Positions 905-30,877 of a stretch of 30,877 nt of DNA are shown in pieces. Positions within the stretch are counted from its first letter, which is position 1, and the number at the start of each line of letters is the position of its first letter. The DNA lies in the IMG/VR virus record IMGVR_UViG_2778261069_000012, positions 1 to 30,877 of that record. One strand, written 5' to 3'. A program made the position numbers and the translations under genes. The DNA comes from a virus. Its lineage: Duplodnaviria > Heunggongvirae > Uroviricota > Caudoviricetes. The notes under the pieces are model-generated. The model saw nothing but the letters and a program-made list of their open reading frames with translations. It was not told the origin of the DNA and did not search any database.

Positions 905-993
905 TAAATTTCTATTATAAATAAAATTGTTCCGGTGATGCTGCCGGAACTAGGAGGACCAAATCACTAAACCGTTTAAGGGGAATTTTTACT

Positions 994-10821: not shown

Positions 10822-13800
10822 ATGCAGTCGATCCAATTTAAACGAACAAATGTTTCTGGCAAAAAACCAACACCGGAACAATTACAGGTCGGTGAGGTAG
10901 CAATCAACCTTAAAGACCATGTTATTTTCACCAAAGACCGAGATCATGAAGTAGTTCAAATCTCTGTTTCTCCTGAAACTCACGCGGCACTAGAATCTAA
11001 AGTTGATGCTAACAAACAAGAATTGGATAGCACAATTGCAGTAAATGACCGCAATATTCACGCTAAAGTAGATGAAATTAAACAAACTACTGATGCAACC
11101 ATCGCAGCAAATCACGCAGAAATTAACAATAAAGTTGATGTAATTAAACGCGAAACCGACGCGACAATCGAGGCCAATAAAAATAAAGCTGCTTCCGATC
11201 TTGCTGGTGTTAAAGCTGAATTGTCGGATACCATCAACGCTAATAAAAATGCGGCTGCTGTAGCAACTCAGGAACTGGACACCCGCATCAATAAAAAAGT
11301 TGATGATATTAAATCCCGTACCGATGCAACCATCGTAAGCAATCACAAAGCAATCAATGACAAAGTTGATTTGATTAAGGCAGAAACTGACCGCACTATC
11401 GCAGCAAATCACGCCTATGCGGAAAATCAGTTAACTGACACCTACAATAACCTTACTGGTGTGATTGCAGCCAATAAGCAAGAGGCAGCGGATAACGTCG
11501 CAGCATTAACCCGTGATGTTGAAGCCAAAAATACAGCAATTCATAGCAAAGTTGACAATAACAAGTCTTACACTGATTCTGAATTGGCACGCTTAGAAAG
11601 CCGTATTGATGCAGCCGATGGATCAAGTGATGGTAAGTACATCAAAAAGCACGTAAACACTTGCACTGATGGCTATTTGCTGTCTAAGACCGCAAACCCT
11701 TTTGATGATCCGAGTGCTCTTAATCTTGATTACTTTGGTGCATTTCGCATGAATGACCTGGCGGGTCATATTGCAATGATCTTGCATGTTCCGCACCCAT
11801 CCGGCGTTAATCATGCTCGTGGTTTTGAGTTCACTTATGGGTCTAATCCGGTTCATACGGTAAGAACATACGGCTATGATGAATTGGGACATTTGGCATA
11901 TTCTCACCGCATGTATCATGAAGGTGATAAACCTACTCCGGCTGAAATTGGCGCATATTCGAAAGCAGAAATTGACCGCCTGTTCCAGAAGACGCTTAAT
12001 TTTGGGATCGAGGGCGGTTGGTTTAAACTCGGTAGTTTAACACTGCCACAGCAACACGGTCGCACGGCTAAGATTCGTTTAGTGGGTGGTAACGGTTATA
12101 ACGTCGGACAGAATGGACAAGCCAATATTATTGAACTGGTGATCCGTTGCGGCAACAATAGCCCGAAAGGTGTTGTATTCAATGCGTATTATACTATTTG
12201 GTATTATGAACAACATTTTTGTGCAATTCCTACCGATGGTGATAATTACGATCTTTACGCTTACTATGGTGCACATACAGGATTTGTTTTAGCAGAATAT
12301 CAAGTTTCTTCCGGTGGTGTTTCTTTAAACCTGTTGGATACTCCTGAATACCTGGGCGGTGAAAAACCTGTTGCAGATGAAATTTTTGATGCTCTTAACA
12401 TTTCATCGTTCAATAACTTTAGCAACCGTGGAACGTTAAATTTTGGTGGAAACCATCAAGGTCAATATGACATTGAGCATTTGAACGAACAACCGACAAA
12501 TGCTAAAAAGATGTTGCGTCGCTTCCGTAGTTCTGCTCCTGCCACTATCTGGCATGAGACAGTTGATGATAACGCATATCGTCTTGCTACTGGATACGAA
12601 GATACAAATCAGGAATTATTGCTGACAGCAACATCCGGGTTACATGTCAAGAAATTAACATTGGATGGCGGTGTTACTGGAAATTCTGGTATTGATATTC
12701 GTCGAGGACCAAACGAATCAAGTCATTTTAATTTCATGGATTATCGCACTGGACAAGATGTTCGTAATGGTTGGTTTGGTTTTGGTGATGGAACAACCAA
12801 AGATTTTATTTGGTGGAACGATAACGGTCAAAACTCTATAAACCTGATTGAAGATGGTGAATTGCATATTACTGGCGGTAAAGGCCAGAAAATTGTAATG
12901 AATAGCGAAGTTGCATTATCTGAAAATGCTCGTTTGGCTGTTAAAGGTGGCAATTATGGCTTAATTTTTAGAAATGATGGCGTTGGCTTCCATATTCTTA
13001 CCACAGATCTCGGTGATTCATTTGGACCGTGGAATACTCGTAGACCATTCAGCTATAATTTTGCGGACGGTGGATTATATTTAGGTGGTACTGAAACTGC
13101 TCGTTGTTTGCATCTGGGAATTGATGGTAGCACTCGTCTCGAAGACAACCTGTTCTTTAAAGCTGGTTCTCGTCAATCTATGGACTATATGGAACTCGTC
13201 CATTGGGGGGCAAGCAATACAGGTCGAAATAACGTTTTAAGTCTTCGTGACTCAAAAGGATTTTTCGCAGAATTTGAACGATTGGGTGATGATACCATTA
13301 AAAACACCTTCTTCGGGAAACTTAAAGTTAATCGTGGATCTGACGCAATCATCATGAATGCCGAAAGTGGCGATTCGTCTATATATTTGTTGGGTACTTG
13401 TGCTGATAATAACAACTGGTATATCGGTAAAGGTGGTGCTGATAATGGATTAGCGTTCTATAGCTATGCTACTAATGCTGCTATCAATATTACAAACGCG
13501 GGTGATATCGCGCTAAGTCCGAAAGGCGTCGAAATGACTCATGTCAATAACGTTCGGTTCTATGTTCATGGTGAACGTTGGACTGCTAGCCAATCTGGAG
13601 GCTGGGGCGATCAATGGGGATTAGAAGCGCCGATATTTGTCGATCATGGTTATGTTGGACCAGATAGCTATTATCCAATTATTAAAGGAAGAAGTTTAAT
13701 CACCAATCAAGGGTATACAACTGCCGTCGATTTTGGTATGCGTCGTGTTCCTCAAAATTGGGGGCAAGCTATTATTCGTGTTGGATCTGCGGAGGCATCG

Positions 13801-14232
13801 CCAGCGGCTGGTCATCCTCAAGCTGTATTCGAGTTCCATCATGATGGTACTTTCTATTCTCCTGGTAATGGTAACTTTAACGATGTTTATATTCGTTCCG
13901 ATGGTCGTCTGAAAATTAATGTTGAAGATTACGAAGAAAATGCGGTGGATAAGGTAAATAAACTCAAAGTTAAAACCTACGATAAAGTTAAATCTCTTAA
14001 TGACCGAGAAGTTATAGGTCATGAGATTGGTATTATCGCACAGGATTTACAAGAGGTATTACCGGAAGCTGTTAAAACCGCAAAAATTGGTGGTCTTGAT
14101 AACCCAGAAGAAATTTTAACAATTTCAAACTCCGCAGTGAACGCGCTTTTAATTAAAGCGGTCCAAGAAATGAGCGAAGAAAATAAACTTCTTCGTGAAC
14201 GTCTTGCTGCAATTGAAGCTAAATTAGGGTAA
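10822..14232 (+). CDS. tail fiber protein with C-terminal intramolecular chaperone (peptidase S74-like) domain
   Basis: 1136 aa; N-terminal KKPTPEQLQVGEVAINLKDHVIF fiber-type motif; four 22-aa KVDxIKxxTDATIxANH repeats; C-terminal GHEIGIIAQDLQEVLPEAV ... LLIKAVQEMSEENKLL typical of self-cleaving fiber chaperone domains. Confidence 0.85.
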   Translation: MQSIQFKRTNVSGKKPTPEQLQVGEVAINLKDHVIFTKDRDHEVVQISVSPETHAALESKVDANKQELDSTIAVNDRNIHAKVDEIKQTTDATIAANHAEINNKVDVIKRETDATIEANKNKAASDLAGVKAELSDTINANKNAAAVATQELDTRINKKVDDIKSRTDATIVSNHKAINDKVDLIKAETDRTIAANHAYAENQLTDTYNNLTGVIAANKQEAADNVAALTRDVEAKNTAIHSKVDNNKSYTDSELARLESRIDAADGSSDGKYIKKHVNTCTDGYLLSKTANPFDDPSALNLDYFGAFRMNDLAGHIAMILHVPHPSGVNHARGFEFTYGSNPVHTVRTYGYDELGHLAYSHRMYHEGDKPTPAEIGAYSKAEIDRLFQKTLNFGIEGGWFKLGSLTLPQQHGRTAKIRLVGGNGYNVGQNGQANIIELVIRCGNNSPKGVVFNAYYTIWYYEQHFCAIPTDGDNYDLYAYYGAHTGFVLAEYQVSSGGVSLNLLDTPEYLGGEKPVADEIFDALNISSFNNFSNRGTLNFGGNHQGQYDIEHLNEQPTNAKKMLRRFRSSAPATIWHETVDDNAYRLATGYEDTNQELLLTATSGLHVKKLTLDGGVTGNSGIDIRRGPNESSHFNFMDYRTGQDVRNGWFGFGDGTTKDFIWWNDNGQNSINLIEDGELHITGGKGQKIVMNSEVALSENARLAVKGGNYGLIFRNDGVGFHILTTDLGDSFGPWNTRRPFSYNFADGGLYLGGTETARCLHLGIDGSTRLEDNLFFKAGSRQSMDYMELVHWGASNTGRNNVLSLRDSKGFFAEFERLGDDTIKNTFFGKLKVNRGSDAIIMNAESGDSSIYLLGTCADNNNWYIGKGGADNGLAFYSYATNAAINITNAGDIALSPKGVEMTHVNNVRFYVHGERWTASQSGGWGDQWGLEAPIFVDHGYVGPDSYYPIIKGRSLITNQGYTTAVDFGMRRVPQNWGQAIIRVGSAEASPAAGHPQAVFEFHHDGTFYSPGNGNFNDVYIRSDGRLKINVEDYEENAVDKVNKLKVKTYDKVKSLNDREVIGHEIGIIAQDLQEVLPEAVKTAKIGGLDNPEEILTISNSAVNALLIKAVQEMSEENKLLRERLAAIEAKLG
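11065..11430 (+). repeat. in-frame tandem repeats (about 22-aa units) in the tail fiber shaft
   Basis: Four copies of KVD(E/V/D/L)IK(Q/R/S/A)xTD(A/R)TI(A/E/V)(A/S)N(H/K). Confidence 0.6.
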
Positions 14233-14238
14233 TTGGAA

Positions 14239-14258
14239 AGCGGGGAGAAATCTCCGCT
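14239..14258 (+). other. stem-loop with GAAA tetraloop between the fiber gene and the paralog cluster
   Basis: AGCGGGGA-GAAA-TCTCCGCT (8-bp stem, one G.U); no U-tract. Confidence 0.4.
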
Positions 14259-14270
14259 AAGGATTCTTAT

Positions 14271-14567
14271 ATGGGATATTGGGTAAGTAGTGAAATTAAT
14301 ACTAAAATCGATGCTTTAAAATGGCATGTATTTGATATTCCTAACGGCTATGGTACTGCTCGTGCTGGTGTCGCTGTAATGCGTCATAATGCTGGTGGTG
14401 GGTGGTCTGATGCACATATTAACGTAGATGGTTTGACCGTTGCTCGTCGTCGTGGTGGGACCAATTGGGGATCTACTATAAATTCGTTTGTTCCTGCTGG
14501 CTGCACCGTCTCCTTTGGTTTAGGGGGTGAAGGTGGTGTTGAATATTTTAAATTCATGGAGTTTTAA
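14271..14567 (+). CDS. small FDIPNGW-motif protein, paralog 1 of 3 (unknown function)
   Basis: 98 aa; SD AAGGA; shares WxxFDIPNG(W/Y), Gly-rich core and C-terminal TVSF ... YFKF with the two ORFs downstream. Confidence 0.65.
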   Translation: MGYWVSSEINTKIDALKWHVFDIPNGYGTARAGVAVMRHNAGGGWSDAHINVDGLTVARRRGGTNWGSTINSFVPAGCTVSFGLGGEGGVEYFKFMEF

Positions 14568-14569
14568 TT

Positions 14570-14876
14570 ATGGCTGGATGGATAAATCAAAGAATGTCAA
14601 ACGCTATTAGTATTTGGGCTAATGGTGGATATTTTGATATCCCCAACGGCTGGGTTACTGATTCATGCGGAATTGTTTTTGCTCATATGGAAGCCATTAA
14701 CGGTGCTGGTGATCTTGATTCTGAATTGGCTGTAAATGGATTGATTGAATCAGGTCATCATGCTGGTGATACTGGGAGTTGGGGGCGCTAGTTCTTTAGT
14801 TGGCGCTGGTGCTACCGTTAGCTTTACATTGGGTAAAGGTAGTTTGCATTATTTTAAATTCAGGAGAATGCACTAA
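14570..14876 (+). pseudogene. small FDIPNGW-motif protein, paralog 2 of 3, interrupted by a +1 frameshift at a G5 run
   Basis: Frame 2 reads M...GDTGSWGR then stops at 14789-14791; frame 0 continues ASSLVGAGATVSFTLGKGSLHYFKFRRMH to a TAA at 14874-14876, matching the paralog C-termini; the shift maps to GGGGG at 14781-14785. Confidence 0.6.
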
Positions 14877-15178
14877 TGGCATTTTGGGTAGATGGCGCTT
14901 TGGGGAATAGGGCGGGTAAAGCAAATCAAGGATGGTTTGATATTCCTAACGGTTGGACAGCCGACGCTTTCGGGACTATTTCATTCTGTGCTCATTCTTC
15001 CGGTGGTGGCGGTGGTGACTCTGAATTGCTTATTCATGGTTTGTGTGTTTCTGGAAGCCATAAGGGTCATGATTGGGGACAGATTCATTCTTGTATTGCA
15101 CCGCAAGGGGCGGTAATTACCGTTAGCACAAATAGGGGGATCGCTCATCTTCGTTATAGACGTTTGAGCAACCGCTAA
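14876..15178 (+). CDS. small FDIPNGW-motif protein, paralog 3 of 3 (unknown function)
   Basis: 100 aa; SD AGGAGA; ATG overlaps the restored stop of paralog 2 (TAATG). Confidence 0.65.
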   Translation: MAFWVDGALGNRAGKANQGWFDIPNGWTADAFGTISFCAHSSGGGGGDSELLIHGLCVSGSHKGHDWGQIHSCIAPQGAVITVSTNRGIAHLRYRRLSNR

Positions 15179-15232
15179 ATAAATAGAATTACGGGTATGT
15201 GCCCTATTGTTTAAAATAGAAGGAAAAGAATA

Positions 15233-25709: not shown

Positions 25710-26057
25710 ATGGCTAAAAATATTTTCACTGAATTTCCTACTTATCCGGTCGATCAGCTTTCCGGTATTTTTATTAATGGCATTAGCCCAGAATCTATGA
25801 CACATGATTTTGAGGCGAAGAGAGTTAAACATAAACAATATAAAGAATGTATCCGCGATCATGAAAAAGGGACCGTGTTTTGTGTCGCTACATTGGCTAA
25901 ACGTCCTAAATATCGTTTTCGTGTCGGACAAGAAGTTGATGTGGTTAATCCTTATAGCTTTAACTGTCTGGGCGATGCACGCGCGGTGTGTGTAGGCACT
26001 GCTCCTTATTATATCAAGGGTATGCGCTTTATTGGTTATATCTTCGAAATGATCTAA
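25710..26057 (+). CDS. hypothetical protein (115 aa)
   Basis: ORF with SD GGGGG; no motif recognised. Confidence 0.5.
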   Translation: MAKNIFTEFPTYPVDQLSGIFINGISPESMTHDFEAKRVKHKQYKECIRDHEKGTVFCVATLAKRPKYRFRVGQEVDVVNPYSFNCLGDARAVCVGTAPYYIKGMRFIGYIFEMI

Positions 26058-26066
26058 GGGGGTAAT

Positions 26067-26420
26067 ATGTTAAGTAAGCATTTTTCTCGCAAGGAATTTA
26101 AATGTAAATGCGGAAAATGTGATTATGATACAATCGACGCTGAATTACTGGTGATTCTTGAGGATGTACGAGAGCACTTCGGTAAACCAGTGATTATTAA
26201 CAGTGGCAACCGTTGCCCGACTCATAACAAGAATGTAGGCGGGGCAGCCAATAGCTATCACGTTCGAGGCCGCGCGGCTGACATTGTTATCAAGGGTGTC
26301 TCGCCTGATATTGTTCATGCTTATCTTGATGGGAAATATCCTACTCAATACGGCTTAGGAAAATATAAAACCTTTACGCATATTGATTCCAGATCAAAAA
26401 AATCACGGTGGAATGGATAA
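26067..26420 (+). CDS. endolysin candidate, peptidase M15-type zinc peptidase
   Basis: 117 aa; SGNRCPTHNKNVGGAANSYHVRGRAADI ... THID matches the H/D/H zinc-binding signature of small M15 cell-wall peptidases; SD AAGGGGGTAA; no signal peptide. Confidence 0.78.
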   Translation: MLSKHFSRKEFKCKCGKCDYDTIDAELLVILEDVREHFGKPVIINSGNRCPTHNKNVGGAANSYHVRGRAADIVIKGVSPDIVHAYLDGKYPTQYGLGKYKTFTHIDSRSKKSRWNG

Positions 26421-26784
26421 AACAAAAGCGCCTCTGGTGGGCGCTTTTTTGTTAGAATATGCTGGCGACGTTAGCTATATTTCTGACCATTTTTTCATTA
26501 TAGACAAATATACCGCAGATGATAAAGTGGTATTCGACGAAGTTGATCCGTCTCTGGTTGAAGCAATGAAAGAACCTGAGATCGTCATTGAAGAAACAAA
26601 AGAAGAATCTCCAGAAGTTGAACCAGTGGTCGAAGAAGTTAAGTCAGTTGTTGAAGAAGCACTGGAAGTTAAAGTGGAATCTCCGGTAGCCAACATTTTC
26701 TCTGACGAAGCAGAGCATCGTTCTCCTGCACATGACACTGATTCATTTTGCGATCTTACTGGTTTCCAAAACTACAATAATTAA
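26413..26784 (+). CDS. hypothetical acidic protein; start uncertain
   Basis: 123-codon open frame, E/V-rich; the only in-frame ATG near the 5' end overlaps the endolysin stop, and the terminator hairpin lies inside the putative 5' end. Confidence 0.3.
   Translation: MDKTKAPLVGAFLLEYAGDVSYISDHFFIIDKYTADDKVVFDEVDPSLVEAMKEPEIVIEETKEESPEVEPVVEEVKSVVEEALEVKVESPVANIFSDEAEHRSPAHDTDSFCDLTGFQNYNN
26427..26451 (+). terminator. rho-independent terminator after the endolysin gene
   Basis: AGCGCC-TCTGGTG-GGCGCT followed by TTTTTT. Confidence 0.8.
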
Positions 26785-26793
26785 TTCTTATAA

Positions 26794-26832
26794 ATAGTAG
26801 TGAATATTATTTTATTGAGGATTCACTACTAT
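26794..26832 (+). promoter_or_regulatory. 12-bp stem enclosing the SD and start codon of the downstream nuclease gene
   Basis: ATAGTAGTGAAT (26794-26805) pairs perfectly with ATTCACTACTAT (26821-26832); loop contains GAGG; the 3' arm includes the AT of the ATG at 26831. Confidence 0.55.
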
Positions 26833-27829
26833 GAATACTACTTTAGCAAAGGATATCGAATTTACCGCAAAAAGCAAACGTGCGACCCCTCCGGTCGAAT
26901 ATGAAACCAGAATCATTAAAGTTTGTCAAGTGCATGGATGGTTATACAGTGGTTTTGTGCTTCCTGTAAAGAAACCATTCCAGAACACCAAAGTTTGCAT
27001 AGAAGTTAACGGAAAGGTTAAAACGCCATGTATTAGTCATGTTCTAACTGGTCAGTTTACTGGCAAAGATAGAGTATCACCGCCTAAGAAGAAGTTTAGA
27101 TTTACCGAAGAAGAACACTTAGAAAACGCTCGCAAGTTCTACAAGCCGATAGGGTGGGATGTGTTAGGTCTGGCTGAACCTTATCAGGGTGTTGACACTA
27201 AACTAATTCTTCGTTGTAAGTGCCACGGAAAGATTCACAAGAAAGGTGATTTACACAATAACCGCAGACAAGGCGGGTTAACATGCCCTTTGGTTAGGGG
27301 TGTACTTAAATCAATTCAGAATGGTAGAAAACAGGTTATCAGAAACAAGTTTGCACAGCGCCCTATGCACTTTTATCTAATTCGTGTTGGTGAGAAGTTT
27401 TTCAAATATGGAATTACCACTCGCAAAGATCCGATGCAACGGGTAAGAGAACACCAGAAGCACACCAGCGAGAAAATCACCTTTGAATGCTCACATTTGT
27501 TTAACATTGGATGGAAAGCTGGTGATTTAGAAATGGGGATTAAAAAGAATATTCAGGGCAAGAAAATCCCACGTAAGGTAATGAATAGCGGATTCACAGA
27601 AACGCTACCGATTAGCAAGCTGAAAGATGTTAAATCATTCATCAATGAATACATCCACACCAACCCATCTAAGCCAATGTATTTTGATGATACCAACGCA
27701 ATCAATCTGAACAACTACATTAGTGATGAAGACATAGAACGAGATTTATCGCAGTGGATGAATGCACCGTTAGCTGATTTAACACCGGAAGACTTAGAAC
27801 TCGATTTAAGCCCTTTAGAGGCTCTTTAA
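26831..27829 (+). CDS. GIY-YIG / T5orf172-like nuclease-domain protein with N-terminal Cys/His-rich region (homing-endonuclease-like)
   Basis: 332 aa; FYLIRVGEKFFKYGITTRKDPMQRVREH matches the GIY-(9-11 aa)-YIG-R-H pattern with conserved downstream FECS and SGFTE; N-terminal CxxH / CxCH clusters. Confidence 0.5.
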   Translation: MNTTLAKDIEFTAKSKRATPPVEYETRIIKVCQVHGWLYSGFVLPVKKPFQNTKVCIEVNGKVKTPCISHVLTGQFTGKDRVSPPKKKFRFTEEEHLENARKFYKPIGWDVLGLAEPYQGVDTKLILRCKCHGKIHKKGDLHNNRRQGGLTCPLVRGVLKSIQNGRKQVIRNKFAQRPMHFYLIRVGEKFFKYGITTRKDPMQRVREHQKHTSEKITFECSHLFNIGWKAGDLEMGIKKNIQGKKIPRKVMNSGFTETLPISKLKDVKSFINEYIHTNPSKPMYFDDTNAINLNNYISDEDIERDLSQWMNAPLADLTPEDLELDLSPLEAL

Positions 27830-27844
27830 TACAATTAAATTAAA

Positions 27845-27866
27845 AAGGGGTACGGATGTACCCCTT
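27845..27866. terminator. bidirectional terminator between convergent genes
   Basis: AAGGGGTAC-GGAT-GTACCCCTT 9-bp stem; U-rich on the minus-strand side, weaker U-tract on the + side. Confidence 0.7.
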
Positions 27867-27902
27867 AACTGTTTTAGCTCGTTATACGTCGATTTAGGCC
27901 GC

Positions 27903-29582
27903 TTAAATTCCAAATTCCTGTAATGGACCTGGTATTTCCTCTTCTGGTTTCCAGTTCTTATCTGTCAGCATGTCTAAACATGGATGCAAAACAAGCCCGT
28001 TACTCTCCAGAATCTGCCTATCATTGATAGTTTTCAAATCAATGAATATCCGGCCTTTCCTCGTTCCTCTTGAATTTTCTATTACAACTCTCTGGGTCTT
28101 TCCATCGATGTATTCCAGCACAAACAAGTTTTTATTTCTGTCAATCCTGCTACACCCGATCCGCTTTAGAGCTTGCTTAATCTTAAACCGGACCTTTAGT
28201 CGTTCCTCGTTATAAACATCTTCTAAATCAAATTCTGCGAGCTTCTCCCAGCCTTGAGAGTCCACAGAATACATTTCCTCTTCTGCCATCTTGATCTGAT
28301 TGTAGAGTGTTTCACGCTCGCTATTGAGGGTAGTAATCTGATCGGCTAGCTCCTTCGTTGCTCCTGTCATAGCAGAAAGGGCAATCAGGTTATCAATCTT
28401 GCGTGATATTTCATCAACCTGTACTTTCAACGCCGGAACCGGATTAGCCTTGTCCTCAGCAATCCAGATTTTATCAGCCAGCAATTGCAATACAGCTTTC
28501 TCTAATTGATCACCTCGAAAACTCCAGTTTGGATGCTCGCAATCAAGTCTACGTGAACGGGTCGCATCACATGTATAACGATACTGGTCAGAACGTTTGT
28601 TCGTTCCCTTCACTTTAACCATAGCGCAACCGCAATGATCACATTTCAATAGGCCAATACCACTAAGCAGGGGGATCGGTTTAACTTCTTCCTTGTCTCC
28701 AAAGTTCCATGCTCTAGCACCAATATTTTTCTTAAGGTGATAGAACGTAGCATCATCAATAACACGAGGGTAATAATTCTTTAACTCATAGTTAACACCA
28801 TCTACAGAGACTTCCTTGATACCAATCAAAGCGCGGGTATGGAACAACCTTTCAACCATTGCCCGTGACCATTTTGAATGCTTCTTATTACTAACCGCTG
28901 GTGGCGGTGTATATGTCTCGTTAAGGTGATCCAGTATTTCGGCGGTTGAACGTCCATTCTTCCGTAATTCCACAATCTCCTGAACAACAGGGAAGTACAC
29001 CGGATGAGGCAGCACATAACCGGAAGTGGTATCAGTCCACCACATATTCTTTCCAACTTCCTCGATAGCCACTGCCGGATTTTGTGGATTTTCTTGATGA
29101 GCTTTAATCTTAATCAATGCGCTTGAGTTAGTACGATTGCGCTTAGTCTGACTTTCCTCATTACCACGGATGAATAAAAGGATGGAGAACATCAGGTCCA
29201 TCGGATTAGCGGTAACAGTATCCAGCGAGTAGATCTTGTTATCCATGCCAGTAACAATGGTTATTCCCCTACGGATGATTGAAAGGAATAACTCCTGCGC
29301 ACTGACAATATCGGCACGGGATAAGCGGTCCAAGTTTTCAATGAATAGCCAGCTACCAACAGGAACGGATCTACCAATTGCATCAAGGAAACGAGATAGC
29401 GCCCCTGTTTTAGAGTTAGCACCCTTAAACGCAGATACACCCAGATCCTGATAATCATTTACCAGTTCAAGGTCATACTTTGCCGCAACCTCTCTCGCCA
29501 TCCTGATTTGTCGTTCATAACTCGAACCATCATTCTGACGCATAGACGAGAAGCGAATATACGAATACAGTTTAGTTTTCAT
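27903..29582 (-). CDS. large serine recombinase (integrase-type)
   Basis: 559 aa from ATG 29582 (the ORF track begins at an upstream TTG at 29597); N-terminal resolvase-type catalytic domain (YSYIRFSSMRQ ... ENLDRLSR); Cys-rich zinc-ribbon (CDHCGCAM ... C ... C); C-terminal coiled coil. Confidence 0.85.
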   Translation of the reverse strand: MKTKLYSYIRFSSMRQNDGSSYERQIRMAREVAAKYDLELVNDYQDLGVSAFKGANSKTGALSRFLDAIGRSVPVGSWLFIENLDRLSRADIVSAQELFLSIIRRGITIVTGMDNKIYSLDTVTANPMDLMFSILLFIRGNEESQTKRNRTNSSALIKIKAHQENPQNPAVAIEEVGKNMWWTDTTSGYVLPHPVYFPVVQEIVELRKNGRSTAEILDHLNETYTPPPAVSNKKHSKWSRAMVERLFHTRALIGIKEVSVDGVNYELKNYYPRVIDDATFYHLKKNIGARAWNFGDKEEVKPIPLLSGIGLLKCDHCGCAMVKVKGTNKRSDQYRYTCDATRSRRLDCEHPNWSFRGDQLEKAVLQLLADKIWIAEDKANPVPALKVQVDEISRKIDNLIALSAMTGATKELADQITTLNSERETLYNQIKMAEEEMYSVDSQGWEKLAEFDLEDVYNEERLKVRFKIKQALKRIGCSRIDRNKNLFVLEYIDGKTQRVVIENSRGTRKGRIFIDLKTINDRQILESNGLVLHPCLDMLTDKNWKPEEEIPGPLQEFGI

Positions 29583-29601
29583 ACCATTTCCAAACAAAAA
29601 C

Positions 29602-29631
29602 GCCCCTACCGCGTATTATAACGATAGGGGC
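29602..29631 (-). terminator. intrinsic terminator on the minus strand ending about 13 nt before the recombinase start codon
   Basis: GCCCCTA / TAGGGGC 7-bp stem with 16-nt loop containing TATAAT-like TTATAAT; U-run follows on the minus-strand transcript. Confidence 0.5.
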
Positions 29632-29647
29632 ATTGGTTAGTAAGTCA

Positions 29648-29893
29648 TTAATATTTCTTTCCAGTTAGTTTTGCATCACGTTTATTAATATCCTCGATAT
29701 GACTCCATACACACGCAGTAATAAAGTCGTCATCGTCACCAACTCCGGCAACCTGTGCTAATTCAGTACACAGTTGATTTAAAGAAGGTGCAACGGCAGC
29801 ACGCTTGACACTATCACCCTGTACATATTGTTCGGCATTTGCAGCACCAACCAAACCCAGAGCAAGAACAACACCCGCGATAATCTTTTTCAT
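29648..29893 (-). CDS. small secreted protein (signal-peptide-bearing; unknown function)
   Basis: 81 aa; N-terminal MKKIIAGVVLALGLVGAANA (type I signal peptide, AxA site); two Cys in the mature part; SD GAGGAA 8 nt upstream. Confidence 0.62.
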   Translation of the reverse strand: MKKIIAGVVLALGLVGAANAEQYVQGDSVKRAAVAPSLNQLCTELAQVAGVGDDDDFITACVWSHIEDINKRDAKLTGKKY

Positions 29894-29922
29894 AGTAGAA
29901 TTTCCTCTTGTTATTTTAATTA

Positions 29923-29938
29923 CGATATATTTATATCG
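29923..29938. promoter_or_regulatory. candidate operator: inverted repeat CGATATA-TT-TATATCG
   Basis: 7-bp arms with 2-bp spacer, 30-45 nt upstream of the secreted-protein start codon. Confidence 0.3.
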
Positions 29939-30064
29939 TTAAAAGTTGATGCTGATTACCAGACCAAACACAACCGCACCAATCAAATCAATCCAGTTAA
30001 TACACAATCCGCTATATTCTTTCTTGAATGTCTTGGATGAAATGCCATCATGAAATTGTTTCAT
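29939..30064 (-). CDS. small membrane peptide candidate (41 aa)
   Basis: MKQFHDGISSKTFKKEYSGLCINWIDLIGAVVFGLVISINF; hydrophobic C-terminal segment; SD GGGGTGAG upstream; not in the supplied ORF track (below its length cutoff). Confidence 0.35.
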   Translation of the reverse strand: MKQFHDGISSKTFKKEYSGLCINWIDLIGAVVFGLVISINF

Positions 30065-30067
30065 TGC

Positions 30068-30148
30068 TCACCCCATACTAACGACAATATAAGAAAGACT
30101 AATCATAGTTGTGAGACTACCTCCCACGAATGAGATAAAAGCTAACAT
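30068..30148 (-). CDS. tiny hydrophobic peptide candidate (26 aa)
   Basis: MLAFISFVGGSLTTMISLSYIVVSMG; SD GGAGA 7 nt upstream; stop lies 3 nt from the next ATG. Confidence 0.25.
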   Translation of the reverse strand: MLAFISFVGGSLTTMISLSYIVVSMG

Positions 30149-30161
30149 GTTTGATTCTCCA

Positions 30162-30191
30162 GTTTAAAAAGCGGTGGGAATTGCACCCACC
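30162..30191 (-). terminator. rho-independent terminator on the minus strand after the 128-aa gene
   Basis: GGTGGG-AATTGCA-CCCACC stem-loop with a U-run on the minus-strand transcript. Confidence 0.65.
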
Positions 30192-30205
30192 AAATTAGAA
30201 ATTAA

Positions 30206-30592
30206 TTAAGCGCGAACGATGGTCAGAGTATCCAGCAAACCTTTTTCGTATAATTCGAAACACGTTTTATATTGCTCAATCTGGAAACCATAGCGGGTGA
30301 TCTTATTCAGTAGGACAATCGCGCTATTCTCATCTAGGTATTGTCCTTGCTGTCCAATGACATAAGTCTCGCGGGATAGTTTCAGCTTACGGAAACCTTT
30401 AACACCTAATTCCTTAGCAACCGCTTTAATCTCTTTAATCTCACCCTCAGCCGCAACATATTCAGCGTCGATAATCTCAGGTGATGATCTCAGTGCTACC
30501 AGAACTAAGGCCATTGCTTCTTCTTCTGTACGCGCAACACCAGCTTTCTCGAAAGTCATCTCACCAAATTTACGAATCATGATATTGAACAT
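30206..30592 (-). CDS. hypothetical protein (128 aa)
   Basis: ORF with coding-like composition; no motif recognised. Confidence 0.55.
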   Translation of the reverse strand: MFNIMIRKFGEMTFEKAGVARTEEEAMALVLVALRSSPEIIDAEYVAAEGEIKEIKAVAKELGVKGFRKLKLSRETYVIGQQGQYLDENSAIVLLNKITRYGFQIEQYKTCFELYEKGLLDTLTIVRA

Positions 30593-30604
30593 TGTTTTGC
30601 TGCC

Positions 30605-30877
30605 TTACTTCTTGCTGATAAACTCTTTAGCGATAAAGTTGATTACTTCTTTCAGCTTCTTGTCTGTATCGATGCACGCCGGTAATTCTTCTTTAATCTC
30701 CTGCGGCAGATACACATTGCCTTTAAAGTGGAGGAAACCATCATTACCAATCATGTAGGAGAACATCCATTCACAATCGTTATCCGCTTCCCAGAACGCC
30801 ACGGCCTCATCGCCAATCAAGGTAATGTCCATGTTGCGACGTGCTGCGTAGTTGATGATTGCTTTACCGATGTTCAT
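30605..30877 (-). CDS. hypothetical protein; may extend beyond the window edge
   Basis: 90-codon ORF whose first ATG is at the last 3 nt of the window, so the true start may lie outside. Confidence 0.5.
   Translation of the reverse strand: MNIGKAIINYAARRNMDITLIGDEAVAFWEADNDCEWMFSYMIGNDGFLHFKGNVYLPQEIKEELPACIDTDKKLKEVINFIAKEFISKK

What the first reader, a model, noticed from the sequence alone, without database searches (positions are those of the whole stretch)
26794..27829. GIY-YIG/T5orf172-like nuclease gene whose SD and start codon are locked in a 12-bp stem
The 332-aa ORF carries a GIY-YIG superfamily signature (FYLI ... KYGITTRKDP..R..EH, then FECS and SGFTE) plus N-terminal Cys/His clusters. 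It sits between the lysis genes and the recombinase, a typical site for free-standing homing endonucleases. A perfect 12-bp inverted repeat places the SD in the loop and the AT of the ATG in the stem, echoing the hairpin-controlled translation known for I-TevI in T4.
Basis: partly seen in the sequence, partly recalled or inferred. Interest (0 to 1): 0.6.

Follow-up and report, generated by a model that had tools for sequence, protein, structure and literature searches.

The report
Hairpin-gated T5orf172 nuclease gene in prophage
An E. coli prophage carries a nuclease gene of the phage homing-endonuclease type whose ribosome-binding region is closed by a conserved RNA hairpin that overlaps a T4-style late-promoter motif, next to DNA copied from virulent T4-like phages, so it may record or mediate conflict between the two kinds of phage.

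Summary
ORF 26831-27829 (332 aa) is real. A perfect 12-bp stem (26794-26805 / 26821-26832) holds GAGG at the 3' end of its loop and the AT of the ATG in the stem.

The protein fails Pfam thresholds on its own. Its homologues, an AlphaFold model and fold searches place it among phage nucleases with CapR-type zinc-finger repeats and a T5orf172/GIY-YIG-like domain.

The hairpin is kept in 17 distinct leaders, with one compensatory G-C to A-U change, although synonymous sites between alleles are saturated.

A transcript starting 6 nt downstream would lack most of the arm, as in T4 I-TevI, e, soc, segB and Aeh1 mobE.

Recent homing is not shown. Divergent alleles occupy the same site beside the serine recombinase in E. 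coli, Salmonella and Proteus prophages, and the "empty" sites examined are microhomology deletions.

The gene abuts fragments of Krischvirus inh (98% nt), hoc or uvsW.

Verdict: a known regulatory design on a known nuclease family, in an unusual host and context. Moderate interest.

The parts
26831..27829 (+). Nuclease ORF, 332 aa (stop codon 27827-27829)
   Evidence: It is intact in 9 sampled near-identical alleles, with pN/pS 0.1-0.5. Between diverged alleles dN/dS is about 0.15-0.29 where dS could be computed, and synonymous sites are saturated. PHROG 681 'endonuclease', E 4e-20.
26882..27055 (+). N-terminal helix plus beta-hairpin module 1 (about aa 18-75; C32, H35, C56, C67, H70). Degenerate CapR-like DNA-binding repeat.
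   Evidence: AF2 secondary structure H21-35, E38-43, E54-59, E62-64, H68-73. Homologues carry CapR/DUF723/DUF4379 repeats here.
27098..27298 (+). CapR-like zinc-finger module 2 (about aa 90-156; C129, C131, H132, C152). The last ligand of the family's CPxC motif is lost (CPLV).
   Evidence: Pfam CapR at aa 102-134, E 0.014, below threshold. C129 and C152 are nearly invariant in 100 remote homologues.
27356..27661 (+). T5orf172/MUG113-type GIY-YIG-like domain (about aa 176-277), with Y182, K192, G194, R204, E234, G254, E257 and T258
27767..27826 (+). Acidic C-terminal tail PLADLTPEDLELDLSPLEAL
   Evidence: It is conserved even in alleles only 37% identical overall. The last 46 nt of the ORF survive in the deletion derivatives L004 and L007.
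26789..26796 (+). TATAAATA, the consensus late-promoter motif of T4-like phages. It overlaps the first 3 nt of the 5' arm. The predicted start of a late transcript is about 26802.
   Evidence: Alleles carry TATAAATA, AATAAATA or ACTAAATA, and TAAATA is invariant in 17 leaders. A or T at -13 is usual in RB49, and CTAAATA in Aeh1 (PMC1524935).
26794..26805 (+). 5' arm of the hairpin (ATAGTAGTGAAT)
26806..26820 (+). 15-nt loop that ends with the Shine-Dalgarno GAGG (26817-26820)
26821..26832 (+). 3' arm (ATTCACTACTAT): the SD-to-AUG spacer plus the A and U of the start codon
   Evidence: Opening the ribosome site costs 12.5-13 kcal/mol in long transcripts and 5.2-6.6 kcal/mol in transcripts that start at 26800-26804.
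26510..26767 (+). Internal fragment of the Krischvirus inh gene (inhibitor of prohead protease), 96.5-98.1% nt identity in the best-matching Krischvirus records. It lies in frame inside the nominal ORF 26413-26784.
26424..26448 (.). Terminator-like G+C hairpin with T-runs just after the endolysin stop codon. It would insulate the cassette from the lysis operon.
   Evidence: Sequence AAAAGCGCC-TCTGGTG-GGCGCTTTTTTGTT.
27845..27866 (.). Bidirectional terminator between the nuclease gene and the convergent recombinase gene. It belongs to the prophage backbone and is present in all relatives.

Best explanation
This is a resident, multi-allelic member of the phage 'T5orf172 homing-endonuclease' family. 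It has two degenerate CapR-type zinc-finger DNA-binding modules followed by a T5orf172/MUG113-type GIY-YIG-like nuclease domain. It sits in the cargo locus between the endolysin and the serine integrase of an enterobacterial prophage.

Its 5' leader is a translational gate of the type known from T4-like phages.

1. Shown: in any transcript that enters from upstream, the SD-to-AUG spacer and the first two bases of the AUG pair with a 5' arm. This raises the computed cost of opening the ribosome site by about 6-7 kcal/mol. The hairpin is conserved, with a compensatory change, across 17 leaders.

2. Inferred: a WATAAATA late-promoter-type element overlaps the 5' arm. Transcripts started from it (about 26802) would lack most of the arm and be translatable. 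The protein would then be made only when that promoter fires.

3. Inferred: the protein is an active sequence-tolerant nuclease. Its activity, or recombination at its conserved ends, explains three things: allele swapping on nearly identical prophage backbones, recurrent deletion, and the Krischvirus uvsW, inh and hoc fragments that abut it.
For: Family.
- PHROG 681 endonuclease, E 4e-20.
- tblastn to T5.141 'endonuclease' at 27% identity, E 1e-8, and to Krischvirus JK32 gp173 at 35% identity.
- The family profile finds 2003 representatives, whose members hit CapR, DUF4379, MUG113, DUF723 and T5orf172.
- Y182, G194, R204 and E234 are invariant, and K192 and E257 nearly so, in 100 remote homologues.
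- A T5orf172 domain is a proven nuclease in ICP1 Odn, where E180A abolishes cleavage (PMC8263062).
- The CapR plus T5orf172 architecture is the one described for ICP1 and T5-like homing endonucleases (PMC8096241 and PMC10448857).

Selection.
- pS is 0.64-0.84 (saturated) against pN 0.21-0.36 between alleles.

Leader.
- It is 75-95% identical where the coding sequence is 54-71% identical.
- Folding energies range from -6.3 to -15.0 kcal/mol in 12 alleles.
- 84% of cells are paired, against 13-59% when the partners are slid. One core stem pair (19-51) changes from G-C to A-U in 2 leaders and two loop-proximal pairs also change on both sides. Six pairs never vary, so say nothing for or against. 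0 of 500 shuffles reach the covariation score.
- The motif lies at -13 to -6 relative to 26802.
- In Krischvirus Makalu_002, AATAAATA lies 46 nt upstream of inh and TATAAATA lies upstream of uvsW.
- The same promoter-in-hairpin design is documented for T4 e, soc, 49, I-TevI/II/III, segB and Aeh1 mobE, and for metagenomic free-standing endonucleases (PMC3014915, PMC2988022, PMC2677866).

Recombination.
- The backbone is 95-98% identical while the nuclease coding sequence is 54-66% identical in L005, L038 and L039.
- Three independent microhomology deletions were found.
- Flanking Krischvirus DNA is present.
Against: - The protein itself fails every curated threshold (Pfam, NCBIfam, PADLOC).
- Its zinc sites are degenerate.
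- No pristine empty site and no donor phage carrying this gene were found.
- A perfect TATAAATA is present in only 5 of 17 leaders.
- The motif is short. The window has 3 copies against 2.3 expected by chance.
- The prophage is not known to encode a gp55-type sigma factor.
- A terminator-like hairpin at 26424-26448 should already limit read-through, so the need for a gate is unclear.
- The leaders are related, so the covariation counts are few events.
Confidence: 0.6

Rival explanations
1. Infection-triggered weapon. The nuclease has been domesticated by the prophage, or acts selfishly to the same effect, against superinfecting T4-like (Krischvirus) phages. It stays silent in the lysogen: terminators insulate it and the hairpin closes its ribosome site. 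It is transcribed from the WATAAATA element only when an infecting phage supplies the gp55/gp33/gp45 late machinery. It then cuts phage DNA in or near the uvsW-inh-hoc region.
For: - The late-promoter-type motif matches RB49-type usage, A or T at -13.
- Terminators lie on both sides of the cassette.
- Fragments of Krischvirus inh (98% nt), hoc (72%) and uvsW (84%) lie next to the gene in different alleles.
- T4 segE sits at inh/uvsW and cuts uvsW (PMC2988022).
- A family member lies between uvsW and uvsW.1 in Krischvirus JK32.
- Long-term purifying selection in a prophage argues for a benefit.
- There are precedents. PLE CapR and ICP1 Odn are homing-endonuclease derivatives used in phage-satellite conflict. 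PD-T4-3 is a GIY-YIG anti-T4 enzyme from E. coli O157:H7 (rank 9).
Against: - There is no PADLOC hit beyond E 0.005 to PD-Lambda-1.
- The gene is often deleted: 29 of the 47 E. coli genomes that match the gene region keep only its 3' end.
- It is not shown that late transcription by an infecting phage can act on chromosomal DNA here.
- The same prophage also shares 97% identical tail-fibre DNA with Krischvirus, so gene flow is not specific to this locus.
Confidence: 0.2
2. The hairpin and motif serve the prophage's or the host's own expression system, not a T4-type late system. TATAAATA would be a promoter or -10-like element used by host RNA polymerase or a prophage activator. The stem-loop would be a 5' mRNA stabiliser, an RNase III/E processing site, or an operator for autorepression by the nuclease, as I-TevI represses at its own late promoter.
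For: - All three TATAAATA copies in the window lie just upstream of, and are co-oriented with, an ORF: 916-923, 26789-26796 and 29935-29928. Two of them lie 34 nt from the ATG, and the start contexts are similar.
- I-TevI binds an operator that overlaps its late promoter (PMC2988022).
Against: - The sigma-70 scan finds no plus-strand promoter at the leader. The hexamers lack the -7 T, a -35 element and a TG extension.
- The other two TATAAATA sites have no hairpin that closes the ribosome site.
- Pairing includes the start codon, and the compensatory changes preserve pairing rather than sequence.
Confidence: 0.12
3. The protein is not a nuclease in vivo. It would be a sequence-specific DNA-binding regulator like PLE CapR, or an accessory factor of the adjacent serine recombinase such as a directionality factor.
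For: - Its position is fixed next to, and convergent with, the serine recombinase in all lineages.
- CapR itself is a homing-endonuclease-derived repressor.
- The conserved acidic C-terminal tail could be a protein-protein contact.
Against: - The Arg and Glu positions of the GIY-YIG-type active site are invariant across the superfamily.
- The gene is deleted in many otherwise similar prophages.
- Alleles are swapped independently of the recombinase.
Confidence: 0.05
4. The leader is conserved only because it is a recombination boundary that is repeatedly homogenised by gene conversion. The hairpin would have no RNA function.
For: - Junctions with unrelated upstream DNA (inh, hoc, other nuclease genes) fall within about 20 nt of the motif.
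- L013 has a recombinant leader: the TATAAATA flank with the L003-type loop.
Against: - A G-C to A-U double change and G-U intermediates keep pairing.
- The 3' arm lies in the SD-AUG spacer, where sequence is otherwise free.
- The stem always ends on the AU of the start codon.
Confidence: 0.03

Closest known systems
T5orf172-family homing endonucleases with CapR/DUF723/DUF4379 zinc-finger repeats (ICP1 gp165 and gp174, T5-like phages; Netter 2021 PMC8096241, Barth 2023 PMC10448857); T5.141 of phage T5
   Same: The architecture is the same: N-terminal repeated zinc-finger modules and a C-terminal T5orf172-type GIY-YIG-like domain. It falls in the same PHROG (681). Sequence and fold similarity are detectable. 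It sits at a boundary of inter-phage genetic exchange.
   Different: It resides in a temperate prophage at one fixed locus beside the integrase, not near essential genes of a virulent phage. The zinc ligands are partly lost. It carries an extra conserved acidic tail. No cleavage or homing has been shown.
T4-type translational control by a hairpin whose 5' strand carries a late promoter (T4 e, soc, 49, I-TevI/II/III, segB; Aeh1 mobE; metagenomic 'fractured gene' endonucleases, PMC2677866)
   Same: The ribosome site and AUG are sequestered in a stem. A TATAAATA-type motif is placed so that a transcript starting 6 nt downstream lacks the 5' strand. The gene served is an endonuclease gene.
   Different: The host genome is a prophage with no known gp55-type sigma factor. 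Only the AU of the AUG and the spacer are paired, while the SD sits at the loop edge. The nuclease family differs (T5orf172, not classical GIY-YIG or HNH). There are no transcript data.
T4 segE (GIY-YIG, inserted at inh/uvsW, cuts uvsW) and the JK32 gp173 family member between uvsW and uvsW.1
   Same: A free-standing endonuclease gene is associated with the uvsW-inh-hoc segment of T4-like genomes. The prophage alleles are flanked by copies or fragments of exactly these genes.
   Different: Here the T4-like genes are truncated fragments inside a prophage. No T4-like phage with this gene at inh or hoc was found.
Homing-endonuclease derivatives used in phage conflicts (PLE CapR, ICP1 Odn) and prophage GIY-YIG defence enzymes (PD-T4-3)
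   Same: These are homing-endonuclease-type domains in an integrated element that shares recent nucleotide identity with a virulent phage. PLE capR and ICP1 gp174 share more than 70% identity over 300 bp. Here the identity is 98% over 258 bp.
   Different: The shared DNA here is a neighbouring capsid-gene fragment, not the nuclease's own DNA-binding domain. No defence phenotype is known.

Membership tests
GIY-YIG superfamily, T5orf172 (PF10544) / MUG113 (PF13455) branch | The protein itself scores above the curated Pfam threshold | tested here: not met
   MUG113 13.4 bits against a cut-off of 22.3 (E 0.13). No T5orf172 hit. No NCBIfam hit.
GIY-YIG superfamily, T5orf172 (PF10544) / MUG113 (PF13455) branch | Significant homologues of the same domain pass the family models (transitive homology) | tested here: met
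   The L005 allele at the same locus scores MUG113 27.9 bits (cut-off 22.3) and T5orf172 19.5 bits (cut-off 20). Of 100 homologues with profile E <= 1e-18, 25 hit MUG113 and 8 hit T5orf172 at E <= 1e-3.
GIY-YIG superfamily, T5orf172 (PF10544) / MUG113 (PF13455) branch | GIY-YIG-like beta-beta-alpha-beta-alpha core fold | tested here: met
GIY-YIG superfamily, T5orf172 (PF10544) / MUG113 (PF13455) branch | Conserved Tyr in strand 1, K-x-G in strand 2, catalytic Arg in helix 1, and catalytic Glu | tested here: met
   Y182, G194, R204 and E234 are invariant. K192, G254, E257 and T258 are at least 90% conserved in 101 sequences. Which Glu is the metal ligand was not resolved.
GIY-YIG superfamily, T5orf172 (PF10544) / MUG113 (PF13455) branch | Endonuclease activity | not testable with these tools
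   Shown only for the relative ICP1 Odn (PMC8263062).
T5orf172 homing endonucleases with CapR-type zinc fingers (Barth 2023) | One or more N-terminal CapR/DUF723/DUF4379 zinc-finger DNA-binding repeats | tested here: inconclusive
   CapR E 0.014, 16 bits against a cut-off of 24.2, at aa 102-134. 81 of 100 homologues hit CapR. The model shows two similar helix plus beta-hairpin modules. The CPxC ligand pair is reduced to C152-P-L-V.
Homing endonuclease gene (functional definition) | Sporadic presence, with intact endonuclease-free target sites in close relatives | tested here: not met
   An allele of the family is at the same site in all lineages examined. The loci that lack it (L004, L006, L007) are deletions that keep the 3' end or the leader.
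Homing endonuclease gene (functional definition) | Transfer with co-conversion of flanking DNA | tested here: inconclusive
   Alleles are replaced on backbones that are 95-98% identical. Flanking Krischvirus fragments reach 98% identity. No donor or recipient pair was identified.
Homing endonuclease gene (functional definition) | Site-specific cleavage of the cognate endonuclease-free allele | not testable with these tools
   Needs purified protein and target DNA.
T4-type late-promoter/hairpin translational gate | The SD and/or AUG are sequestered in a stable stem in long transcripts | tested here: met
   12-bp stem, -15 kcal/mol. Opening cost is 12.5-13 kcal/mol.
T4-type late-promoter/hairpin translational gate | The structure is conserved, with compensatory change, among homologous leaders | tested here: met
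   17 distinct leaders. The 8 core pairs are kept. One core stem pair (19-51) shows G-C to A-U in 2 leaders and G-U in 1; two loop-proximal pairs also change on both sides. The covariation score exceeds 500 of 500 shuffles and all slid controls. The events are few.
T4-type late-promoter/hairpin translational gate | A late-promoter motif is placed so that late transcripts lack the 5' strand | tested here: met
   TATAAATA at 26789-26796 puts +1 at about 26802. This leaves 4 nt of the arm, and the opening cost falls to 5-6.6 kcal/mol. The allele variants AATAAATA and ACTAAATA fall within known T4-like usage.
T4-type late-promoter/hairpin translational gate | gp55-dependent initiation at that motif, and read-through transcripts from upstream | not testable with these tools
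   No transcript data. A terminator-like hairpin lies upstream at 26424-26448.
Known anti-phage defence systems (PADLOC) | Match to a defence-system protein model | tested here: not met
   Only PD-Lambda-1 at E 0.005-0.007 over about 22-44 residues.

The most novel reading that the evidence does not exclude
The cassette is a prophage-borne nuclease wired to the late-transcription machinery of its enemy. It is silent in the lysogen and switched on only when a superinfecting T4-like (Krischvirus) phage reaches late gene expression. It then cuts that phage in the uvsW-inh-hoc region. The Krischvirus fragments stacked against the leader boundary would be scars of those encounters, or homology arms that let the gene move between prophage and virulent phage.
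Probability: 0.2. Interest if true: 0.8.

Novelty: new variant of a known kind. Interest (0 to 1): 0.5.

Why it matters
T5orf172-type endonuclease genes and the T4 'late promoter inside a ribosome-site hairpin' switch are each known. They have not been described together, nor in a temperate prophage that has no obvious means of reading a T4-type late promoter.

Four features make this locus a compact place to study how homing-endonuclease-type genes mediate DNA traffic, and possibly conflict, between virulent T4-like phages and resident prophages:
- the leader is conserved while synonymous sites are saturated;
- alleles are swapped on near-identical backbones;
- the gene is repeatedly deleted;
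- fragments of Krischvirus uvsW, inh and hoc (up to 98% identical) abut it.

If the switch responds to an infecting phage, it would be a simple way for a resident element to sense late infection by hijacking the invader's sigma factor.

Tried and rejected
- **Direct family searches.** Pfam, NCBIfam and PADLOC gave nothing above threshold for the protein itself. Family assignment needed homologue profiles and structure.
- **Profile search against PDB sequences.** It found only zinc-ribbon proteins (mS66, a DUF4379 protein), not a nuclease.
- **Search for a donor phage or other contexts.**
  - tblastn and blastn against 50,697 phage records gave only 24-35% identical relatives and no match to the leader.
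  - IMG/VR by protein and by leader pattern returned, apart from one 8-kb metagenome contig, only contigs of about 19-45 kb that look like the same prophage family.
  - The GTDB species genomes and JGI metagenomes returned nothing.
- **Rfam.** No family at the leader.
- **Intrinsic terminator reading of the hairpin.** Rejected: there is no T-run, and the stem ends on the start codon.
- **Sigma-70 promoter at the leader.** None on the plus strand.
- **'Empty site' as evidence of insertion.** Rejected: L004, L006 and L007 are deletions between short repeats.
- **Upstream ORF 26413-26784 as a real partner gene.** Doubtful. Its first codons span a terminator-like hairpin and the rest is an inh fragment. 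The Proteus, L036 and L037 versions are Inh(49-186)-like ORFs, so it is not excluded.
- **TATAAATA as statistically enriched.** It is not: 3 copies against 2.3 expected. Only its position and conservation carry weight.
- **A mafft-based identity script timed out** and was replaced.
Full report
**1. The observation**

The ORF 26831-27829 (+; 332 aa) and the inverted repeat are as described.
- The perfect arms are 26794-26805 (ATAGTAGTGAAT) and 26821-26832 (ATTCACTACTAT).
- The 15-nt loop ends in GAGG (26817-26820).
- The A and T of the ATG are the last stem pairs.
- The RNA hairpin dominates the MFE and centroid folds: -15.4 kcal/mol, z -2.94, 1 of 200 shuffles as stable.
- Only eight local inverted repeats of at least 11 nt exist in the window. 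Several of the others look like terminators, whereas this one has no T-run and overlaps a start codon.

**2. What the window is**

It is a prophage of E. coli.
- About 60 of 5,426 complete E. coli genomes carry the region 26000-30877.
- In the best match it lies next to a truncated ycdX.
- The gene sits between a Peptidase_M15_3 endolysin (26067-26420) and a convergent large serine recombinase (27903-29597).

**3. The protein family**

Alone, the protein is sub-threshold everywhere.
- Pfam gives CapR E 0.014 and MUG113 E 0.13.
- NCBIfam gives nothing, and PADLOC only PD-Lambda-1 at E 0.005.
- PHROG 681 'endonuclease' is clear at E 4e-20.

The closest relatives, and then more distant ones, place it.
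- The word-indexed search found 18 clusters, all named ones from E. coli, Salmonella and Proteus.
- A profile of them found 2003 cluster representatives.
- Of 100 remote homologues, 81 hit CapR, 31 DUF4379, 25 MUG113, 19 DUF723 and 8 T5orf172.
- Y182, G194, R204 and E234 are invariant, and K192, G254, E257 and T258 nearly so.

Structure agrees.
- The AF2 model has mean pLDDT 78.7, and 85-95 in aa 179-277.
- It also matches 112 viral models. The named ones include CapR, zinc-ribbon, GIY-YIG, T5 Orf172 and homing-endonuclease annotations.

This is the architecture described for the T5orf172 homing endonucleases of ICP1 and T5-like phages (PMC8096241, PMC10448857). Nuclease activity of a T5orf172 domain was shown for Odn (PMC8263062).

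Phage relatives include:
- T5.141, between tail chaperone and tape-measure genes;
- a 361-aa protein of Krischvirus JK32, between uvsW and uvsW.1.

The 'Cys/His clusters' are two degenerate CapR-type modules.

**4. Is it mobile?**

All homologues of 48-100% identity sit at the same place, convergent with the recombinase. This holds in E. coli, Salmonella and Proteus prophages.

In E. coli, 18 genomes carry this allele at 98.2-99.8% identity. The other 29 genomes that match keep only the 3' end.

The loci that look empty are not virgin sites.
- L004 encodes MDKTK...VMKEPEDLELDLSQL. This is a fusion created by a deletion from the inh fragment to the last 46 nt of the nuclease ORF.
- L007 is a larger deletion of the same kind.
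- L006 keeps the leader, the ATG and seven codons.

On backbones whose recombinase 3' end is 95-98% identical, the nuclease coding sequence is only 54-66% identical (L005, L038, L039). In more distant prophages both diverge together.

Synonymous sites between alleles are saturated (pS 0.64-0.84), with pN 0.21-0.36. All nine near-identical copies sampled are intact.

The gene is therefore old at this site, selected at the protein level, exchanged as alleles, and often lost. This pattern is compatible with a homing cycle, but homing is not demonstrated.

**5. The leader**

The 45 nt upstream of the ATG are 75-95% identical between alleles whose coding sequences are 54-71% identical.

Seventeen distinct leaders were recovered. 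One precedes an allele with a different N-terminus. All of them fold into the same hairpin.
- Folding energies are -6.3 to -15.0 kcal/mol in the 12 alleles folded.
- The eight core pairs are kept.
- Pair 4 is G-C in 12 leaders, A-U in 2, G-U in 1 and broken in 2.
- 84% of cells pair, against 13-59% for slid partners.
- The covariation score exceeds all 500 shuffles.

The support is real but rests on few events.

**6.

The 5' arm overlaps TATAAATA (26789-26796).
- Other alleles have AATAAATA or ACTAAATA, and TAAATA is invariant.
- TATAAATA at -13 to -6 is the T4 late-promoter consensus.
- In RB49 and other relatives, position -13 is A or T. Aeh1 uses CTAAATA (PMC1524935).
- In Krischvirus Makalu_002, AATAAATA lies 46 nt upstream of inh, and TATAAATA lies upstream of uvsW.

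A start at about 26802 would leave 4 nt of the 5' arm. The computed cost of opening 26815-26843 then falls from 12.5-13 to 5.2-6.6 kcal/mol.

This is the design documented for T4 e, soc, 49, I-TevI/II/III, segB and Aeh1 mobE, and for metagenomic free-standing endonucleases (PMC3014915, PMC2988022, PMC2677866).

Caveats:
- The motif is short and not enriched: 3 copies against 2.3 expected.
- The other two copies in the window also precede ORFs.
- No sigma-70-type promoter is predicted at the leader.
- There are no transcript data.

**7. The neighbourhood**

DNA from virulent Krischvirus (RB49-like) phages surrounds the gene.
- Window 26510-26767 is 96.5-98.1% identical to an internal part of inh in the best-matching Krischvirus records (59 records match, all Krischvirus by BLAST organism names).
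- In other alleles the ORF in front of the leader is one of:
  - an Inh(49-186)-like protein (Proteus L008, L036, L037; about 71% nt identity);
  - an internal piece of hoc (L038; 72%);
  - an Ig-like ORF (L039).
- Other variants carry a uvsW copy (84% nt identity) preceded by a 184-aa PHROG 681 nuclease. Others carry a 193-195-aa PHROG 681 / T5orf172 nuclease on the minus strand, or a 345-aa one ahead of the endolysin.

uvsW, inh and hoc are neighbours in T4-like genomes. T4 segE occupies inh/uvsW and cuts uvsW (PMC2988022).

All these fragments end within about 20 nt of the leader motif. I cannot explain this.

The prophage also shares 97% identical tail-fibre DNA with Krischvirus KFS-EC at window 12343-14538. 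Exchange with these phages is therefore not confined to this locus.

**8. Interpretation**

Most likely (0.6): the gene is a T5orf172-family homing-endonuclease-type nuclease with a T4-type promoter-in-hairpin translational gate. It is long resident and recombinationally active in the prophage's cargo locus.

The most interesting reading not excluded (about 0.2): the gate is read by the late machinery of a superinfecting Krischvirus. That would make the gene an infection-triggered weapon, or a shuttle between prophage and virulent phage.

Lesser rivals:
- a host or prophage promoter with another role for the stem (0.12);
- a non-catalytic DNA-binding or recombinase-accessory role (0.05);
- a leader conserved only as a recombination boundary (0.03).

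**9. Novelty**

Both components are known kinds. Their combination, the temperate host and the T4-like flanks make this a new variant. Interest is moderate (0.5).

Noticed in passing
window 11685-15194 (3' part of ORF 10822-14232 and downstream small ORFs): The distal part of the prophage's 1136-aa tail-fibre gene and the ORFs after it match Krischvirus long-tail-fibre distal subunit DNA. Identity is 97.1% over 12343-14538 to phage KFS-EC. A temperate prophage and virulent T4-like phages therefore share near-identical receptor-binding DNA.
   Followed up: no
window 26413-26784 and 26424-26448: The annotated ORF upstream of the nuclease starts across a terminator-like hairpin right after the endolysin stop (AAAAGCGCC...GGCGCTTTTTT) and continues into the inh fragment. 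It is probably a chance fusion ORF. In Proteus, L036 and L037 the equivalent ORF starts at the internal Met49 of Inh.
   Followed up: partly
window 916-923 (+) and 29935-29928 (-): The only other TATAAATA copies in the window also lie just upstream of, and co-oriented with, ORFs. One precedes ORF 994-1869. The other precedes an 81-aa ORF with a signal-peptide-like N-terminus (29893-29648, 34 nt from its ATG, the same spacing as at the nuclease). The start contexts are similar: CTACTATG and TACTATGAA.
   Followed up: partly
window 27767-27826; alignment A2: The acidic C-terminal tail PLADL(E/T)PEDLELDLSPLEAL is nearly identical in alleles that are only 37% identical overall. It is absent from the JK32 and L022 relatives. 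Its function is unknown. A protein-binding peptide is one guess.
   Followed up: no
L007 2575-3612, L011 1836-2873; L005 2117-2674 (-); L036 2441-3025 (-), L037 2313-2900 (-), L038 2366-2950 (-): Related prophages carry up to two further PHROG 681 / T5orf172-type nuclease genes in the same few kilobases. A 345-aa one lies between the 115-aa ORF and the endolysin; it is preceded by AATAAATA, a terminator hairpin and GGAGG. Ones of 184-195 aa lie on the minus strand.
   Followed up: partly
L005 627-2117 (-), L009 1772-3277 (-), L022 3415-4917: Some prophage variants carry a full-length UvsW-type helicase gene (UvsW_N, ResIII and Helicase_C domains) that is about 84% nt identical to Krischvirus uvsW. 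L011 has a truncated copy.
   Followed up: partly
L021 820-1905 (Shigella phage JK32, MK962753): JK32 has a 361-aa member of this nuclease family inserted between uvsW and uvsW.1, a gap of only 43 bp in Makalu_002. This is a presence/absence polymorphism typical of a free-standing homing endonuclease gene in Krischvirus.
   Followed up: partly
L004 7602-7718; L003 7976-8317: Members of this prophage family lie next to different truncated host genes: ycdX in most, hicB (beside ydcR) in strain 266917_2. Their recombinase proteins carry different accessions.
   Followed up: no
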